The notes under the pieces: generated by a model | Databases searched by the model: none | What the model saw: the letters and a program-made list of their open reading frames with translations, nothing else | What the model was told of the DNA's origin: nothing | From: Candidatus Wolfebacteria bacterium | GTDB lineage: Bacteria; Patescibacteriota; Minisyncoccia; Phycocordibacterales; NVSU01 | DNA length: 50,480 bases | Direction: 5' to 3' | NCBI GenBank assembly: GCA_002401345.1 | Contig: NVSU01000004.1 | Span: forward strand, 628-51,107 | Part shown: positions 2,065 through 11,478 of the stretch, piece by piece | Layout of the letters: each line of letters opens with the position of its first letter | Numbering within the stretch: position 1 is the stretch's first letter | Translations under genes and position numbers: made by a program

Positions 2065-2191
2065 GATCCTGTAGTCCCGACGTCCCTAAAATGTCGGGAG
2101 TCGGGAAGCCGATCGTAGCATCGGCTCTCAGTTTGGTTAGAGTGCATCGTTGACATCGATGAGGTCAGAGGTTCAAGTCCTCTCAGGATCA
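2065..2191 (+). tRNA. tRNA-Val(GAC) interrupted by a 52-nt insertion (2075-2126) between G10 and C11
   Basis: Acceptor GATCCTG/CAGGATC. D-stem G|CTC/GAGT. Anticodon arm CATCG-TTGACAT-CGATG. T arm AGAGG-TTCAAGT-CCTCT. No encoded CCA. Confidence 0.85.
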
Positions 2192-2192
2192 C

Positions 2193-2332
2193 ATGAATCC
2201 CGTAGTAGAAAATAGCATTAGTGGGATACTATATTTTTAATATGAATAACATAATTCGAAACCTTGTAAATAATTTAAATTTCGGTTCACATGCTCTTGA
2301 AGGAGCAATGCCATTTTTCACTACGGGATGAA
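2193..2332 (+). repeat. Family-A element, copy 2
   Basis: ATGAA-TCCCGTAGTAGAAAATAGCATT...AATGCCATTTTTCACTACGGG-ATGAA, 135-nt unit. Confidence 0.9.
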
Positions 2333-2456
2333 TCCCGTTAGAGATCTAAACGCTATGTAGTGGACTTTACAGAGAATCTACAGATATAATAAAAACAATC
2401 AGAATTTATTACGCATTATACGGAAATCTTTGATTTCCTATCTCTAACGGGATGAA
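2328..2456 (+). repeat. Family-A' element in tandem with copy 2
   Basis: ATGAA-TCCCGTTAGAGAT...ATCTCTAACGGG-ATGAA, 124-nt unit with the subterminal hairpin GGAAATC-ttt-GATTTCC. Confidence 0.85.
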
Positions 2457-4152: not shown

Positions 4153-4348
4153 ATTCTGTGTATTTTAAAGTATTATTTGTTTCAAAAAACTCTATTTATT
4201 CATACAGATAATACTATTCTATATACACACTGTCAAGAATTATCTGTATACGGGAACATAGGAAAACCTATTTTAGGATGTATATATTTTTGAATTATAA
4301 ACCTCTTTTCTTTTGAATAAAGCCTTATATTTTGCTATCATTGAACAC

Positions 4349-7138
4349 ATGAACGATGATAATAAAGCGGACGATCCCAAAAAAGAAACTACATCTAAGT
4401 TCACAGATAAATTCTTAAAACCCTATGATTCCAAGGAAACTGAGGATCGTATATACAAACTCTGGGAGGAGAGTGGCTTTTTTAATCCTGATACCCTTAT
4501 AAAGGAGAATATTATCGATGCTGAGGCTGAGCCCTTCTCTATCGTACTTCCACCACCTAACGTTACGGGAACACTTCACACTGGACATGCTGCAATGCTC
4601 GCAATAGAAGATATAATGGTTCGATTTAATCGAATGAGAGGAAAAAAGGCATTATGGATCCCTGGAACAGACCATGCTGCAATTGCGACTCAATCACTCG
4701 TAGAAAAGCAACTCGCTAAAAAGAAGATACGGAGGCAAGACATAGGTCGTGAGGAATTTCTGAAACACGTTGATGCATTTGCCAGCGAATCACATGACAC
4801 GATCGTAAATCAGATTCGAAAAATGGGTGCGTCTATAGATTGGTCTCGCGAAGCATTTACACTTGATAATACTCGTGAAAAAGCTGTTCGTACTGCATTT
4901 AAAAGAATGTATGATGATGGATTGATTTATCGAGGATATAGAATTGTAAACTGGGATCCCAAGGGCCAAACAACTATTTCAGATGATGAGGTTCAACACG
5001 AGGACAGAAAGGCACACATGTATACCTTTAAATATTCTAAAGACTTCCCTATCTCAATTGCGACCACACGACCCGAAACAAAAGTTGGTGACACTGCTGT
5101 GGCAGTTCATCCTGATGATGACCGATATAAAAAATATATTGGTAACACCTATGAACTCGAATTTGCAGGTGTTCCCCTTTCAATACAAATTGTAGGAGAT
5201 GATAAAGTTGATCCAGAATTTGGAACTGGAGCAGTAGGAGTAACTCCTGCTCATAGTATGACCGACTGGGAAATAGCTCAGCGACATGACCTTCCAATGA
5301 AACAAGTGATCAATGAGTATGCAAAGATGATGGTAGATGCGCCAGAGCTCAAGGATAAGAAAACTACTGAGGCGAGGGAGATCATTGTGAAATGGCTCAC
5401 TGATGAGGAACTTCTCGAACATACAGAAGAAGTAGATCAAAGTATTTCTGTGGCTGAGCGTACAAATGGAATTATTGAGCCAATACCTAAATTACAATGG
5501 TTTATAGACGTACATAAAGAATTTACTCTCGCTAATTCACATATAGATGGAATAAAATCTGGTCAAAAGACATCACTAAAGGAGCTTATGCTTACTGTTG
5601 TTAAAAATGATCAAATCAAGATCATTCCCGAAAGATTTGAAAAAACATATTTTCATTGGATAGAAAATCTGCGTGACTGGAATATCTCGCGACAAATCTG
5701 GTATGGCCACAGAGTTCCTGTATGGTATGACAAGGATGATGCTATTCATCTTCAAGAGGAACATAACATTATTTTCATACGTCATGGACAAAGTGAAACT
5801 AATGCGAGTGGGATTATTGCAGGAAATACCGACACACCATTAACAGATAAGGGGCGAGCACAAGCACAAGATGAAGTTAAAAGCTTAAAGGAACGTAACA
5901 TTACGAAAATTATCTCCTCTGATCTAAGTCGATCAAAAGAAACCGCTGAGATTATAGGGCGTGAACTCGGCATTAAAGTTGAGTCATGGTGTGAATTGCA
6001 CGAAGTTGATGCAGGAGATATTCAAGGTACATTTAAGGATCCTGAAAATCATTTTCTACAAAGGGCACAAGATGCACACACAGGTGAAACATTAGAACAA
6101 ATTGAATATCGTGCGCGATTAATTATTGAGAAACTAAAATCTCTCAATGAAACTGGAAATGTACTTGTCGTCGGTCATGATGCATTTATTGCAATGATAT
6201 TTGGCGTGTGGAACAATGTTCCCAAAGAACGACTTATGGACCATATAAATAGCTGGAAGAGCTTGGACAATGCAAAAGGATTGGATGTTCAAATCTTAAC
6301 TGATCCCCAGGGAGAAGATTTAACACAAGACCCTGACACACTTGATACATGGTTCTCTTCTGGACTATGGACATTTTCAACACTCGGATGGCCTTCTCAA
6401 ACTGATGACCTCAAGACATATCACCCAACGAACGTACTGGAAACAGGACATGATTTGCTATTTTTCTGGATTGCACGAATGATTCTTATGACCACATATC
6501 TTCTGGGTGATATCCCCTTTCGAACAGTATACTTCCACGGACTTATTTTAGATAAAGATGGAAAGAAGATGAGTAAGTCTCGACCGGAGACTGCCATTGA
6601 TCCACTCATTGCAATAGAAAAATTTGGTGCTGACGCACTTCGTATGGCTATGATTGTTGGAGTGGGCCCAGGAAGCAGTAACACCCTCTCCGATGAGAAA
6701 ATTAAGGCGTATAAAAAATTTGCAAATAAACTTTGGAATGCAACACGATATGTACTTGAGAGTATAGGGGATTTTGATACGGAACGCACAGTCACACTTA
6801 CAAAGAAGCACGCGTCGTATATAGACGAATTACATGCGCTCGTAAATGAAATAACTAATGAAATGGAAGAATACAAATATTACCTCGTAGCAGAAAAACT
6901 CTATCACTATTTCTGGCATACGTTTGCAGATGTTATTATAGAAGAGAGCAAAGACCTACTTACACATGGTACTGAGGAGGAAAAACTGTCTGCTCACTAT
7001 ACACTTTGGACAATTCTGACCACACTTCTAAAACTACTTCATCCTTTTATGCCGTATGTCACAGAAGAAATTTGGGGAGCACTTCCGCATAACAAAACTC
7101 ATTTATTAATGGTCGAAAAATGGCCAATTCAAAAATAG
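4349..7138 (+). CDS. valS: Valine--tRNA ligase with an inserted histidine-phosphatase domain
   Basis: PPPNVTGTLHTGH, WNISRQIWYGH, DTWFSS and KMSKS motifs, plus an RHG-domain insertion. Start moved to ATG 4349, 7 nt after TG-c-TATCAT. Confidence 0.96.
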   Translation: MNDDNKADDPKKETTSKFTDKFLKPYDSKETEDRIYKLWEESGFFNPDTLIKENIIDAEAEPFSIVLPPPNVTGTLHTGHAAMLAIEDIMVRFNRMRGKKALWIPGTDHAAIATQSLVEKQLAKKKIRRQDIGREEFLKHVDAFASESHDTIVNQIRKMGASIDWSREAFTLDNTREKAVRTAFKRMYDDGLIYRGYRIVNWDPKGQTTISDDEVQHEDRKAHMYTFKYSKDFPISIATTRPETKVGDTAVAVHPDDDRYKKYIGNTYELEFAGVPLSIQIVGDDKVDPEFGTGAVGVTPAHSMTDWEIAQRHDLPMKQVINEYAKMMVDAPELKDKKTTEAREIIVKWLTDEELLEHTEEVDQSISVAERTNGIIEPIPKLQWFIDVHKEFTLANSHIDGIKSGQKTSLKELMLTVVKNDQIKIIPERFEKTYFHWIENLRDWNISRQIWYGHRVPVWYDKDDAIHLQEEHNIIFIRHGQSETNASGIIAGNTDTPLTDKGRAQAQDEVKSLKERNITKIISSDLSRSKETAEIIGRELGIKVESWCELHEVDAGDIQGTFKDPENHFLQRAQDAHTGETLEQIEYRARLIIEKLKSLNETGNVLVVGHDAFIAMIFGVWNNVPKERLMDHINSWKSLDNAKGLDVQILTDPQGEDLTQDPDTLDTWFSSGLWTFSTLGWPSQTDDLKTYHPTNVLETGHDLLFFWIARMILMTTYLLGDIPFRTVYFHGLILDKDGKKMSKSRPETAIDPLIAIEKFGADALRMAMIVGVGPGSSNTLSDEKIKAYKKFANKLWNATRYVLESIGDFDTERTVTLTKKHASYIDELHALVNEITNEMEEYKYYLVAEKLYHYFWHTFADVIIEESKDLLTHGTEEEKLSAHYTLWTILTTLLKLLHPFMPYVTEEIWGALPHNKTHLLMVEKWPIQK

Positions 7139-11015: not shown

Positions 11016-11119
11016 TGTCCCCGGACTGAGTCGAACAGTCAGCTGCTCCTTAGGAGGGAGCCGTTTTATCCATTAAATCCCGACGTTACAGTCGGGACCC
11101 CGACCTTGCGTCGGGGCTA
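11016..11119 (-). pseudogene. Disrupted tRNA-Arg(CCT) with a 39-nt hairpin insertion after G10 and no adjacent 5' acceptor strand
   Basis: TAG|CCCCGACgcaagGTCGGGG TCCCGACtgtaacGTCGGGA|TTTAATGGATAAAAC-G-GCTCC-CTCCTAA-GGAGC-agct-GACTG-TTCGACT-CAGTC-CGGGGAC-A. Confidence 0.75.
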
Positions 11120-11124
11120 TACTA

Positions 11125-11212
11125 TGCCCTCATCAGGAATCGCCTCTCCCCGACTCAATATTTCATATTTCGCTGGACTGCGTTTTGTATTCAATCATTT
11201 CACCACGAGGGC
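11125..11212 (-). pseudogene. Degenerate tRNA-like sequence
   Basis: GCCCTCG...TGAGGGC-A acceptor-like pairing. The last 18 nt are identical to the 3' end of the tRNA-Arg at 11407. The anticodon arm is unrecognisable. Confidence 0.45.
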
Positions 11213-11359
11213 ACTTCTTATTTCTTAGATTATTTCACTCCCAAAGAAATAAAGTCGCATTCTTGAACAAAACGGGAGCCGCTGGTCGAAATCCACAATT
11301 TATATATTCACTATGTTCATTATAAATTGGGACCTTCGGTTCTCATCTAGGAGTCACTG

Positions 11360-11404
11360 TAACGTAAAAAACTCAGGCAAAACATGCTTGAGCTTTTTAC
11401 GTTA
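11360..11404 (-). terminator. Long hairpin/terminator after tRNA-Arg
   Basis: TAACGTAAAAA-a-CTCAGGCA...TGCTTGAG-c-TTTTTACGTTA. Confidence 0.6.
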
Positions 11405-11406
11405 TA

Positions 11407-11478
11407 TGCCCTCATCAGGAATCGAACCTAAATCTAGTCCTTAGGAGGGACTTGTTTTATCCATTAAACTATGAGGGC
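11407..11478 (-). tRNA. tRNA-Arg(CCT), intact
   Basis: Acceptor GCCCTCA/TGAGGGC. D-stem GTTT/AAAC. Anticodon arm AGTCC-CTCCTAA-GGACT. T arm TTAGG-TTCGATT-CCTGA. Confidence 0.93.

What the first reader, a model, noticed from the sequence alone, without database searches (positions are those of the whole stretch)
2065..2191. tRNA-Val(GAC) with a 52-nt hairpin insertion between positions 10 and 11
Seen: every arm of the cloverleaf is intact, yet TCCCGAC...GTCGGGA-GTCGGGA-AGCCGAT-cgtagc-ATCGGCT splits the 5' strand of the D-stem. Known: bacterial tRNA introns are group I or II, are much longer and usually lie in the anticodon loop. Short non-canonical introns are an archaeal BHB/EndA feature. Inference: the lack of decay suggests a recent insertion, a tolerated extra domain, or an unknown processing route. 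Standard tRNA finders would probably miss this gene.
Basis: partly seen in the sequence, partly recalled or inferred. Interest (0 to 1): 0.8.

Follow-up and report, generated by a model that had tools for sequence, protein, structure and literature searches.

The report
Mobile twin-hairpin splits a tRNA gene
A valine tRNA gene of an ultra-small (CPR/Patescibacteria) bacterium is cut in two by a 52-base copy of a small hairpin-forming selfish DNA element that is widespread in these bacteria, so it is most likely a recently disabled gene and not a new kind of tRNA intron.

Summary
Window 2065-2191 is a tRNA-Val(GAC) gene, complete except for a 52-nt insert (2075-2126) between nt 10 and 11. Removing the insert in silico gives a perfect 76-nt cloverleaf.

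The insert is not a private feature of this gene. It is a variant copy of a twin-hairpin palindromic element (arms CCCCGAC/GTCGGGG and TCCCGAC/GTCGGGA, variable loops). The element occurs 7 more times in this genome, in 12 of 201 genomes of the order, and in at least 120 Patescibacteria contigs.

The element lands after W-A-G, which is U8-A9-G10 in tRNAs. It sits in frame inside housekeeping protein genes. In this genome it also splits helix P2 of the only RNase P RNA gene.

In 18 of 137 copies it lies in a tRNA 5' fragment (nt 1-10 | element | nt 11-x), with the intact tRNA just downstream. None of the 137 interrupts a complete tRNA. No RtcB, EndA, BHB motif or Rfam intron was found.

Best reading (about 0.6): a mobile-element insertion inactivated a dispensable tRNA, and tRNA-Val(UAC) remains. 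No RNA data exist, so a tolerated or processed insert (about 0.2) is not excluded.

This scan noted the same element family before on other DNA (e1-4999862). My paper searches found no description of it.

The parts
2065..2074 (+). tRNA-Val(GAC) nt 1-10: acceptor 5' strand, U8, A9, G10. It ends in the TAG that precedes the insertion point.
   Evidence: Sequence. It forms a 7-bp acceptor stem with 2184-2190 in ARAGORN after in-silico removal of the insert and in the RNA fold.
2075..2106 (+). Insert, hairpin 1. The outer arms TCCCGAC/GTCGGGA enclose a truncated inner hairpin (4-bp stem). This looks like a nested, partly deleted copy of the same hairpin unit.
   Evidence: Fold. The arms are identical to those of the genome-wide element. 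Nested forms occur in other genomes (L018 and L076).
2107..2126 (+). Insert, hairpin 2. Arms AGCCGAT/ATCGGCT with a 6-nt loop. It is a variant of the element's second hairpin, with both outer base pairs changed on both sides.
   Evidence: Fold. About 90% identical stretches occur in relative G015. The same variant arm type occurs in G015 and G072.
2127..2191 (+). tRNA-Val(GAC) nt 11-73: rest of the D arm, anticodon arm (GAC), variable loop, T arm, acceptor 3' strand, discriminator A.
   Evidence: Rfam tRNA match 2126-2183. ARAGORN. In an alignment with 17 uninterrupted Val(GAC) genes of relatives, it differs at near-invariant columns only at the compensated 7:66 pair, C25 to T and G37 to A.
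11078..11116 (-). Second copy of the element in the window, in canonical form (arms CCCCGAC/GTCGGGG then TCCCGAC/GTCGGGA), again preceded by TAG.
11016..11077 (-). nt 11-73 of a tRNA-Arg(CCT)-like sequence directly after that element. No matching 5' acceptor strand lies upstream, so it is a pseudo-tRNA.
   Evidence: Weak Rfam tRNA match 11016-11084 at 29.9 bits. Not called by ARAGORN. Sequence read.
11407..11478 (-). Intact tRNA-Arg(CCT), about 290 nt upstream of that element on the minus strand. An 18-nt copy of its 3' end lies at 11125-11142(-), just before the element.
   Evidence: ARAGORN and Rfam. Sequence.

Best explanation
The 52-nt insert is a copy of a small non-coding twin-hairpin palindromic DNA element that is dispersed through Patescibacteria genomes. 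The element inserts with a site preference (W-A-G | N-W-N-A) that matches U8-A9-G10 | N11-N13-A14 of tRNA genes. Here it landed in the ancestral, tsaD-linked tRNA-Val(GAC) gene. This much is shown. What follows is inferred. The transcript would carry two extra hairpins inside the 5' strand of the D stem, in the tRNA core, so the gene is most likely non-functional. GUY codons would then be read by the remaining tRNA-Val(UAC). The arms look perfect because too little time has passed for a 75-nt gene to collect mutations. How the element moves is unknown. No enzyme could be tied to it.
For: (1) Family membership. The insert's hairpin arms match a repeat present at 7 other double-hairpin loci of this genome. 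The repeat occurs in 12 of 201 genomes of the order, against 0 hits for the reversed-pattern control.
(2) Target preference. Among 137 distinct copies the left flank is TAG in 49, AAG in 23 and TAA in 13. Position -2 is A in 115, and +4 is A in 95.
(3) Same tRNA position elsewhere. 18 of the 137 copies have nt 1-10 of a tRNA on the left and nt 11-x of the same tRNA on the right. The intact tRNA follows 8-222 nt downstream. These cover Met, Gly, Val-UAC, Arg, Pro, Ala, Thr and Lys. Two more such loci are in this genome, for Lys and Thr.
(4) Interrupted copies look non-viable. 0 of 137 copies give a tRNA across the junction when the element is deleted. A class-wide pattern for 'element arm + complete D arm' hit 6 of 401 genomes (10 hits against 4 control hits). 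Only this Val gene is a complete interrupted tRNA without an intact copy beside it.
(5) It is a DNA-level element, not an intron. 32 of 99 copies lie inside long open frames, and 24 of those 32 have lengths that are multiples of 3. The hosts include RecJ, PolX, RecG, PolA, MnmA and RNase R.
(6) The insertion is lineage-specific. Relatives have uninterrupted Val(GAC) genes. 13 of 80 metagenome loci with a TsaD 46-56% identical carry an intact tRNA-Val(GAC) beside tsaD.
(7) Dispensability is plausible. tRNA-Val(UAC) is present. For Thr, Pro and Ala only the UNN tRNA was found, although NNY codons make up 35-47% of those boxes, as against 43% for Val.
(8) No splicing machinery or known RNA motif was found.
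Against: The tRNA shows no decay beyond C25 to T, which turns pair 10:25 into G-U.
The insert has a complex history (nested, truncated inner hairpin) and no identical copy elsewhere in the genome. If those changes happened in place, the insertion is not very young.
The interrupted allele is identical in contigs from two studies and no empty-site allele was seen. However, only contigs could be laid, and they drop rare variants.
The tsaD-tRNA-Val(GAC) linkage recurs among relatives, which suggests this tRNA is normally useful.
GUY codons are 43% of valine codons.
The same element splits the P2 helix of the only RNase P RNA gene found. RnpA is present and no protein-only RNase P was found, so the element can be tolerated inside at least one essential structured RNA.
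The assembly is 92% complete and lacks any tRNA-Met or tRNA-Asp gene. Statements about which tRNAs are absent are therefore weak.
Confidence: 0.6

Rival explanations
1. The interrupted gene still yields a working tRNA. One route is tolerance: the two flush hairpins form a self-contained four-way junction that leaves the D stem stacked. The other is processing: the insert is cut out or nicked after transcription by an unknown route. A two-piece tRNA held together by its acceptor stem would be analogous to fragmented rRNAs after excision of intervening sequences.
For: All tRNA arms and identity positions are intact.
The insert starts and ends flush with the helix, with no unpaired linker.
The same element sits inside the 5' strand of helix P2 of the only RNase P RNA gene. 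P1 (10-11 bp) and P2 (5+2 bp) complementarity is preserved around it, RnpA is present and no PIN_5-type protein-only RNase P was found.
No second Val(GAC) gene was found.
The allele is identical in two studies.
Against: In every other tRNA context examined, the element-bearing sequence is a fragment and an uninterrupted copy lies beside it (18 of 137). 0 of 137 copies interrupt a complete tRNA. That pattern is what selection against interrupted tRNAs would leave.
Copies in protein genes are kept in frame, so the element is not removed from RNA there.
No RtcB or EndA was found.
From general knowledge of tRNA structure (recalled, not tested): nt 10-11 lie in the packed core, and the D stem contacts the ribosome. 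RNase P RNA tolerates peripheral insertions far more readily.
Confidence: 0.22
2. The element excises precisely at the DNA level in part of the population, as IS200/IS605-type elements do. The gene would then switch between an interrupted and an intact state.
For: The insertion-site preference on the 5' side and the lack of a target duplication for simple insertions resemble single-strand (Y1/HUH) transposition. A Y1_Tnp gene exists in the genome.
Against: No contig in 4 runs joins 2074 to 2127, but only contigs were available, not reads.
The genome's only Y1_Tnp gene is flanked by a different palindrome.
Y1_Tnp is not enriched in genomes that carry the element: 8 of 11 against 111 of 189.
Confidence: 0.05
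3. The hairpins are a cis-regulatory or processing signal (an attenuator, terminator or nuclease entry site) retained to control tRNA-Val expression.
For: Copies lie in the 5' leaders of many tRNA genes. Single hairpins with the same arms followed by T runs look like terminators elsewhere in the genome.
Against: Here the element lies inside the mature tRNA sequence, not in a leader.
No terminator-like site was called in 1850-2650.
The same element occurs in either orientation inside coding sequences, which a dedicated tRNA signal would not.
Confidence: 0.04
4. It is an archaeal-type (bulge-helix-bulge) or group I/II intron.
For: Only the bare fact of an intervening sequence in a tRNA gene at a non-canonical position.
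Against: The genome is bacterial: it has a tmRNA and RnpA.
No EndA or RtcB was found.
The fold shows no BHB geometry.
The insert is only 52 nt and gives no Rfam intron match.
Confidence: 0.01

Closest known systems
Rickettsia palindromic elements (RPE)
   Same: Short palindromic repeats that spread through a reduced genome. They are found in frame inside housekeeping protein genes as well as between genes, and they are tolerated as extra loops. I saw passages of PMC3767692 listing RPE-4, -6 and -7 inside DNA polymerase III alpha, aminoacyl-tRNA synthetases and other genes. Here the hosts include RecJ, PolA, RecG, PolX, MnmA and RNase R.
   Different: This element is about 36-49 nt, against roughly 70-190 bp listed for RPEs in the table of PMC3767692 that I saw. 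It is two flush hairpins with fixed arms and free loops. It is shared across many families of a whole phylum-level radiation, not one genus. It has a marked preference for tRNA position 10/11. There is no sequence relationship.
REP/BIME elements mobilised by RAYT (Y1/HUH) transposases
   Same: Dispersed imperfect palindromes that often occur as doublets, with a short conserved motif at the 5' foot (recalled from the literature, not from a call). A Y1_Tnp gene is present in this genome and in 119 of 200 relatives.
   Different: REPs are extragenic and species-specific (recalled). This element is often intragenic (32 of 99 copies) and is shared between families. The genome's Y1_Tnp gene is bracketed by another palindrome. 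No association across genomes was seen.
IS200/IS605 family and their gene-less palindrome-associated derivatives (PATE)
   Same: Hairpin ends, insertion 3' of a short specific sequence, and no target duplication for simple insertions (properties recalled). Here the left flank is W-A-G, and the insertions in genes are clean.
   Different: The element is far smaller than any described derivative, has no linker between the hairpins and the ends, and no linked tnpA or tnpB.
Non-canonical archaeal tRNA introns (BHB/EndA)
   Same: A short intervening sequence at a non-anticodon-loop position of a tRNA gene.
   Different: The host is a bacterium. There is no BHB motif, no EndA and no RtcB. The same sequence also occurs in protein genes.
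tRNA-gene-targeting integrative elements (attL/attR duplications of a tRNA end)
   Same: In 18 of 137 copies the element is flanked by a duplicate of the tRNA's own end. The duplicate stops exactly at the mature terminus: nt +1 in the 5' fragments, and the 3' end in the G224 loci. This matches the way integrated islands carry a replacement tRNA end.
   Different: The inserted DNA is tens of bases with no integrase. The duplicated part is usually the 5' end. The Val case has no duplication at all.
rRNA intervening sequences (IVS) excised by RNase III without religation
   Same: A stem-loop insertion in a helix of a stable RNA that the cell lives with. This is a possible analogy for the RNase P RNA and tRNA-Val copies.
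   Different: The hairpins here have 7-11 bp stems, which is shorter than usual RNase III substrates (recalled). No evidence of cleavage exists.

Membership tests
Archaeal/eukaryal BHB-type tRNA intron | Bulge-helix-bulge (3-4-3) or relaxed HBh' motif at both exon-intron junctions | tested here: not met
   In the fold of 2065-2191 both junctions lie at the base of perfect hairpins flush with the D stem, with no 3-nt bulges.
Archaeal/eukaryal BHB-type tRNA intron | Splicing endonuclease (EndA) and RtcB-type ligase encoded | tested here: not met
   PF01974: 0 matches. PF01139: 0 matches. The assembly is 92% complete, and the control genomes gave hits.
Group I / group II self-splicing intron | Catalytic core recognisable by covariance model, with a length of hundreds of nt | tested here: not met
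   The insert is 52 nt. Rfam scans at gathering threshold and at E-value up to 10 list only the tRNA itself.
REP/BIME (RAYT-associated) | Many dispersed copies of a short imperfect palindrome, often in pairs | tested here: met
   7 double copies, the Val variant and 5 single hairpins in this genome. 12 of 201 genomes of the order carry it.
REP/BIME (RAYT-associated) | Extragenic location | tested here: not met
   32 of 99 copies lie inside long open frames. Pfam confirms 7 of the 8 host open frames scanned as single real genes with the element inside or beside their domains; the eighth, L068, reads across two genes.
REP/BIME (RAYT-associated) | A cognate RAYT gene flanked by the same palindromes, co-occurring with them | tested here: not met
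   The only Y1_Tnp gene (G000:C12:1262-1903) is flanked by a different palindrome. Y1_Tnp is present in 8 of 11 element-positive against 111 of 189 element-negative genomes.
RPE-like gene-invading palindromic element (functional class, not the Rickettsia family itself) | In-frame insertion into conserved protein genes, in either orientation | tested here: met
   24 of the 32 intragenic copies have lengths that are multiples of 3, and both orientations occur. Hosts include RecJ, PolX, RecG, PolA, MnmA and RNase R.
MITE (IS-derived) | Terminal inverted repeats plus a fixed-length target-site duplication | tested here: not met
   Each hairpin is its own palindrome, and there are no TIRs spanning the unit. 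The simple insertions (Val gene, protein genes, RNase P RNA) show no duplication.
IS200/IS605-type single-strand transposition | Insertion 3' of a short specific target, hairpin ends, and a Y1 transposase acting on them | tested here: inconclusive
   A target bias of W-A-G on the left side was found. The link to an enzyme was not shown.
Functional tRNA gene | Cloverleaf with all conserved positions, expressed and aminoacylated | not testable with these tools
   The cloverleaf is intact once the insert is removed. No run on record as RNA holds the stretch.

The most novel reading that the evidence does not exclude
The interrupted tRNA-Val(GAC) is a working gene. The twin hairpin would be a structural cassette that can be dropped into one strand of any RNA helix because it folds into a self-contained four-way junction, as it seems to do in helix P2 of this organism's only RNase P RNA. 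The tRNA would then function with the insert, or be matured from it by a bacterial pathway that is neither group I/II self-splicing nor BHB/EndA. That would be the first such intervening sequence in a bacterial tRNA.
Probability: 0.2. Interest if true: 0.9.

Novelty: new variant of a known kind. Interest (0 to 1): 0.6.

Why it matters
If the main reading is right, this locus catches a selfish palindromic element just after it hit its favoured target in a tRNA gene, before decay or any rescue by duplication. It links three behaviours of one tiny element across the Patescibacteria: in-frame invasion of protein genes, invasion of helices in stable RNAs, and a precise preference for tRNA position 10/11. 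That preference leaves tRNA 5' fragments in front of many tRNA genes.

There are practical consequences. Such fragments and interrupted genes mislead tRNA finders, break assemblies at tRNA loci, and distort estimates of the tRNA repertoire of CPR genomes.

If the minority reading is right, bacteria would have a new way of living with, or removing, an intervening sequence in a tRNA. The RNase P RNA copy in the same genome makes that directly testable.

Tried and rejected
RNA evidence: the look-up of sequencing runs listed no holder on record as RNA. Only Logan contigs could be laid, so expression, ends and rare empty-site alleles could not be examined.

Closer relatives: the held genomes include none of the same family or genus. 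A metagenome scan with TsaD found nothing above 59% identity. The age of the insertion therefore could not be bracketed.

Rfam: no family matches the insert.

RAYT as the mobilising enzyme: rejected for lack of association.

Hammerhead idea: a CTGATGA motif upstream of the second window copy turned out to be part of a duplicated tRNA-Arg 3' end.

RNase P lead in G190 (L014): a GAGGAAGTCC motif after the element there gave no Rfam match and lies in a long open frame. I dropped it.

Split or permuted tRNA idea: I searched for the missing 5' acceptor strands of the 3' fragments of tRNA-Met (C24) and tRNA-Asp (C15), and no convincing partner was found.

Variant-pattern search (second hairpin with AGCCGAY arms): only 2 of 201 genomes matched, G015 and G072. 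The G072 copy is intergenic and is not in a tRNA.

Origin of the exact '+1' duplication boundary: I considered template switching, integrase-like att logic, and copying of a short terminated transcript. None could be tested (note).

Literature: searches (listings only; three hairpin strings, 0 papers) found no description of the element or of such tRNA insertions in CPR bacteria. The library omits most subscription journals, and supplements were closed.

Full report
WHAT IS THERE

Window 2065-2191 (+) reads as a tRNA-Val(GAC). The acceptor 5' strand, U8, A9 and G10 lie at 2065-2074. A 52-nt insert follows at 2075-2126. The rest of the D arm, the anticodon arm, the variable loop, the T arm, a perfectly complementary acceptor 3' strand and A73 lie at 2127-2191.

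ARAGORN on the native DNA calls only a distorted 70-nt tRNA-Val at 2123-2192. Rfam's tRNA model matches positions 10-63 only, at 34.1 bits. When a script removes 2075-2126, ARAGORN draws a canonical 76-nt cloverleaf.

The 127-nt RNA folds with the acceptor and T arms intact and the insert as two hairpins flush with each other and with the D stem. The first hairpin (2075-2106) has an outer 7-bp stem around a truncated inner hairpin. The second is 2107-2126. MFE is -52.7 kcal/mol, z = -4.87, and 0 of 200 shuffles fold as well.

Contigs from four runs of two studies cover the insert with no difference, so it is not an assembly artefact.

THE ORGANISM

The genome held is 897 kb in 24 contigs, 37% G+C and 92% complete. 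It has a tmRNA, so it is a bacterium. Its relatives in the genome collection share only its order. One of them is identical to a record titled Parcubacteria group bacterium (L021 and L080). Earlier notes of this scan call the genome Candidatus Wolfebacteria. I did not test that.

THE INSERT BELONGS TO A REPEAT FAMILY

The arm sequences of the first hairpin recur in the genome as a twin hairpin: arms CCCCGAC/GTCGGGG, then directly TCCCGAC/GTCGGGA, with loops of 4-12 nt that differ from copy to copy.
- There are 7 such double copies, plus 5 single hairpins, besides the Val insert.
- One double copy is in the window at 11078-11116(-).
- The exact double pattern occurs in 12 of 201 genomes of the order. 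The reversed-pattern control gave 0.
Nearly all are titled as Patescibacteria-group candidate phyla: Kaiser-, Adler-, Nomura-, Wolfe-, Zambryski-, Yanofsky-, Doudnabacteria and others.

The Val copy is a variant. Its second hairpin has AGCCGAT/ATCGGCT arms, so both outer pairs are changed on both sides. This arm type was found in G015 and G072. Nested forms like its first hairpin occur in L018 and L076.

No Rfam family matches the element. Three of its strings occur in no paper of the held library.

WHERE THE ELEMENT SITS

I analysed all 140 loci fetched (L013-L153 without L033). They hold 137 distinct copies.

Flanks: the left flank ends in TAG in 49 copies, AAG in 23, TAA in 13, CAG in 11 and AAA in 10. 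Position -2 is A in 115 of 137, and position +4 is A in 95 of 137. This consensus matches tRNA positions 8-14.

Protein genes: in the first 99 copies (L013-L113), 32 lie within open frames that extend at least 50 codons on both sides, in either orientation. 24 of those 32 have lengths that are multiples of three. Of 8 such frames scanned with Pfam, 7 are single ordinary genes carrying the element inside or between domains: RecJ, PolX, RecG, PolA, MnmA, RNase R and a glycosyltransferase. The eighth (L068) reads across two genes. The element is therefore carried in DNA and translated, much as Rickettsia palindromic elements are. I saw passages of PMC3767692 on those.

THE tRNA CONNECTION

In 18 of 137 copies the 10 nt to the left equal nt 1-10 of a tRNA (8 or more of 10 identical; 13 are perfect). 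The nt to the right equal nt 11 onward of the same tRNA for 0-11 nt. The intact tRNA gene follows 8-222 nt downstream. These cover Met, Gly-UCC, Val-UAC, Arg-CCU/GCG/UCG, Pro-GGG/CGG, Ala-UGC, Thr-GGU/CGU and Lys-UUU/CUU. Two more such loci are in this genome, upstream of tRNA-Lys(CUU) and tRNA-Thr(UGU).

Among the 13 perfect cases the identity stops exactly at tRNA nt +1 in 9, and 2-4 nt further in the other 4.

In genome G224 the mirror arrangement occurs. An intact tRNA is followed by a conserved 22-26-nt spacer ending in TAG, a long version of the element, and then nt 11-76 of the same or a related tRNA. One such copy carries a U33C change.

In the window, the copy at 11078-11116(-) is followed by nt 11-73 of a tRNA-Arg(CCU)-like sequence that lacks a 5' acceptor strand.

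The key result is this. Deleting the element yields a tRNA across the junction in 0 of 137 copies. A class-wide search for 'element arm directly followed by a complete CTCAG-type D arm' hit 6 of 401 genomes (10 hits against 4 for the reversed control). Only the Val gene of this window is a complete interrupted tRNA with no intact copy beside it.

IS THE Val GENE ALIVE?

Arguments for 'dead, recently hit':
- Everywhere else, selection seems to have kept an uninterrupted copy next to the interrupted one.
- Nothing suggests that the element is removed from RNA.
- No EndA, RtcB, BHB geometry or intron model was found.
- tRNA-Val(UAC) is present.
- The assembly shows UNN-only decoding for Thr, Pro and Ala, whose NNY codon shares (35-47%) resemble valine's 43%.
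- The insertion is lineage-specific. Relatives have continuous Val(GAC) genes, and 13 of 80 loci with a 46-56% identical TsaD carry an intact tRNA-Val(GAC) next to tsaD. This is therefore the ancestral gene.

Arguments for 'alive':
- Against 17 relatives, the gene differs at near-invariant columns only by a compensated 7:66 pair, C25 to T and G37 to A.
- No second Val(GAC) exists in the assembly.
- The allele is identical in two studies.
- The element's own nested, truncated structure hints at some age.
- The element also lies inside the only RNase P RNA gene.

On that last point: upstream of the copy at G000:C23:2934-2976(-), 10-11 nt pair with the 3'-terminal P1 strand that Rfam's alignment marks. 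Five nt before the element and two nt after it together pair perfectly with the 7-nt P2 3' strand (4 of 500 shuffles reach the duplex energy). RnpA is present and no PIN_5-type protein-only RNase P was found. That RNA must therefore work with the element, or after its removal.

RNase P RNA is known to tolerate peripheral insertions, whereas nt 10/11 of a tRNA lie in its packed core (recalled knowledge). I therefore weight this as raising the 'functional' reading, not establishing it.

HOW IT MOVES

This is unknown.
- The one-sided target motif and clean insertions resemble single-strand Y1/HUH transposition.
- However, the genome's only Y1_Tnp gene (C12:1262-1903) is bracketed by, and even invaded in frame by, a different palindrome.
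- Y1_Tnp is no more frequent in element-bearing genomes: 8 of 11 against 111 of 189.
- The duplicated tRNA ends that stop at the mature termini remain unexplained. A similar case at the 3' end of a uvrA-like gene has 24 nt and 6 nt duplicated around the element.

VERDICT

The 'unknown intron' reading is unlikely, and 'recent insertion' is the best-supported option. The insert is a member of a Patescibacteria-wide twin-hairpin element. My searches found no description of it in print (listings and string search only). This scan had already noted the family on other DNA (e1-4999862).

The Val locus is the only complete interrupted tRNA I found, which makes it the natural test case for whether these bacteria can use such a gene.

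Noticed in passing
G000:C23:2934-2976 (minus strand; locus L252): A canonical copy of the twin hairpin lies inside the only RNase P RNA gene found. It splits the 5' strand of helix P2 (5 nt before it, 2 nt after it), and the P1 5' strand lies further upstream. RnpA is present, and no PIN_5-type protein-only RNase P was found. Rfam's own alignment mis-uses half of the element as P1/P2.
   Followed up: partly
window 2193-2453, and 2452-2474 with 2595-2617: Directly after the tRNA-Val lie two tandem units of about 125-135 bp bounded by inverted repeats, each starting ATGAATCCCGT. After them, a 23-nt direct repeat duplicates the start of tsaD. Contig depth here reaches about 480 against about 15 in the flanks, so the unit is high-copy in the community. 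This looks like the start-codon-docking mini-element described by earlier agents.
   Followed up: partly
window 4313-7138 (+): A 941-aa class I aminoacyl-tRNA synthetase (tRNA-synt_1 and Anticodon_1 domains, plus a fragment of the LeuRS editing domain) carries a complete histidine-phosphatase (His_Phos_1) domain at residues 486-641, in the middle of the enzyme.
   Followed up: no
window 11125-11142 (-) and 11143-11406 (-): About 265 nt downstream of tRNA-Arg(CCT) lies an 18-nt copy of that tRNA's 3' end, immediately followed by TAGTATAG and the twin hairpin. The same layout follows tRNA-Leu(UAG) on contig C8. The twin hairpin may therefore mark the far edge of the 'tRNA-tail' repeats reported earlier in this scan.
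   Followed up: partly
G000:C12:1222-1930 (locus L033): A 213-aa Y1_Tnp/RAYT-like gene is bracketed by a perfect 25-nt palindrome that is unrelated to the twin hairpin. A third copy of that palindrome is inserted in frame inside the gene.
   Followed up: partly
G000 whole assembly; C24:74991-75051 and C15:19332-19388: Neither ARAGORN nor Rfam finds a tRNA-Met (initiator or elongator) or tRNA-Asp gene in the 92%-complete assembly. Only 3' parts lacking a 5' acceptor strand are present. Contig C8 ends inside a tRNA-Lys next to a twin hairpin, so these repeats probably break the assembly at tRNA loci.
   Followed up: partly
L162, L164, L165, L157 (G224:C17 and C5): One genome of the same class carries at least four units with this layout: intact tRNA, a conserved spacer of about 22-26 nt, a long nested version of the hairpin element, then nt 11-76 of a tRNA. 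They involve Phe, Lys and two Val(GAC) copies, one of which has U33C.
   Followed up: partly
L161 (G326:C20, at the contig end): A tRNA-Lys(UUU)-like sequence has a long nested hairpin element at 10/11 and a second twin-hairpin insertion in the anticodon loop. No T arm is visible before the contig ends, so it is probably a decayed copy.
   Followed up: no
L100 4774-4822: Near the 3' end of a uvrA-like gene (opposite strand), the twin hairpin is flanked by a 24-nt plus 6-nt duplication that rebuilds most of the protein's C-terminus. This is the same 'fragment, element, intact copy' layout as at tRNA genes.
   Followed up: partly
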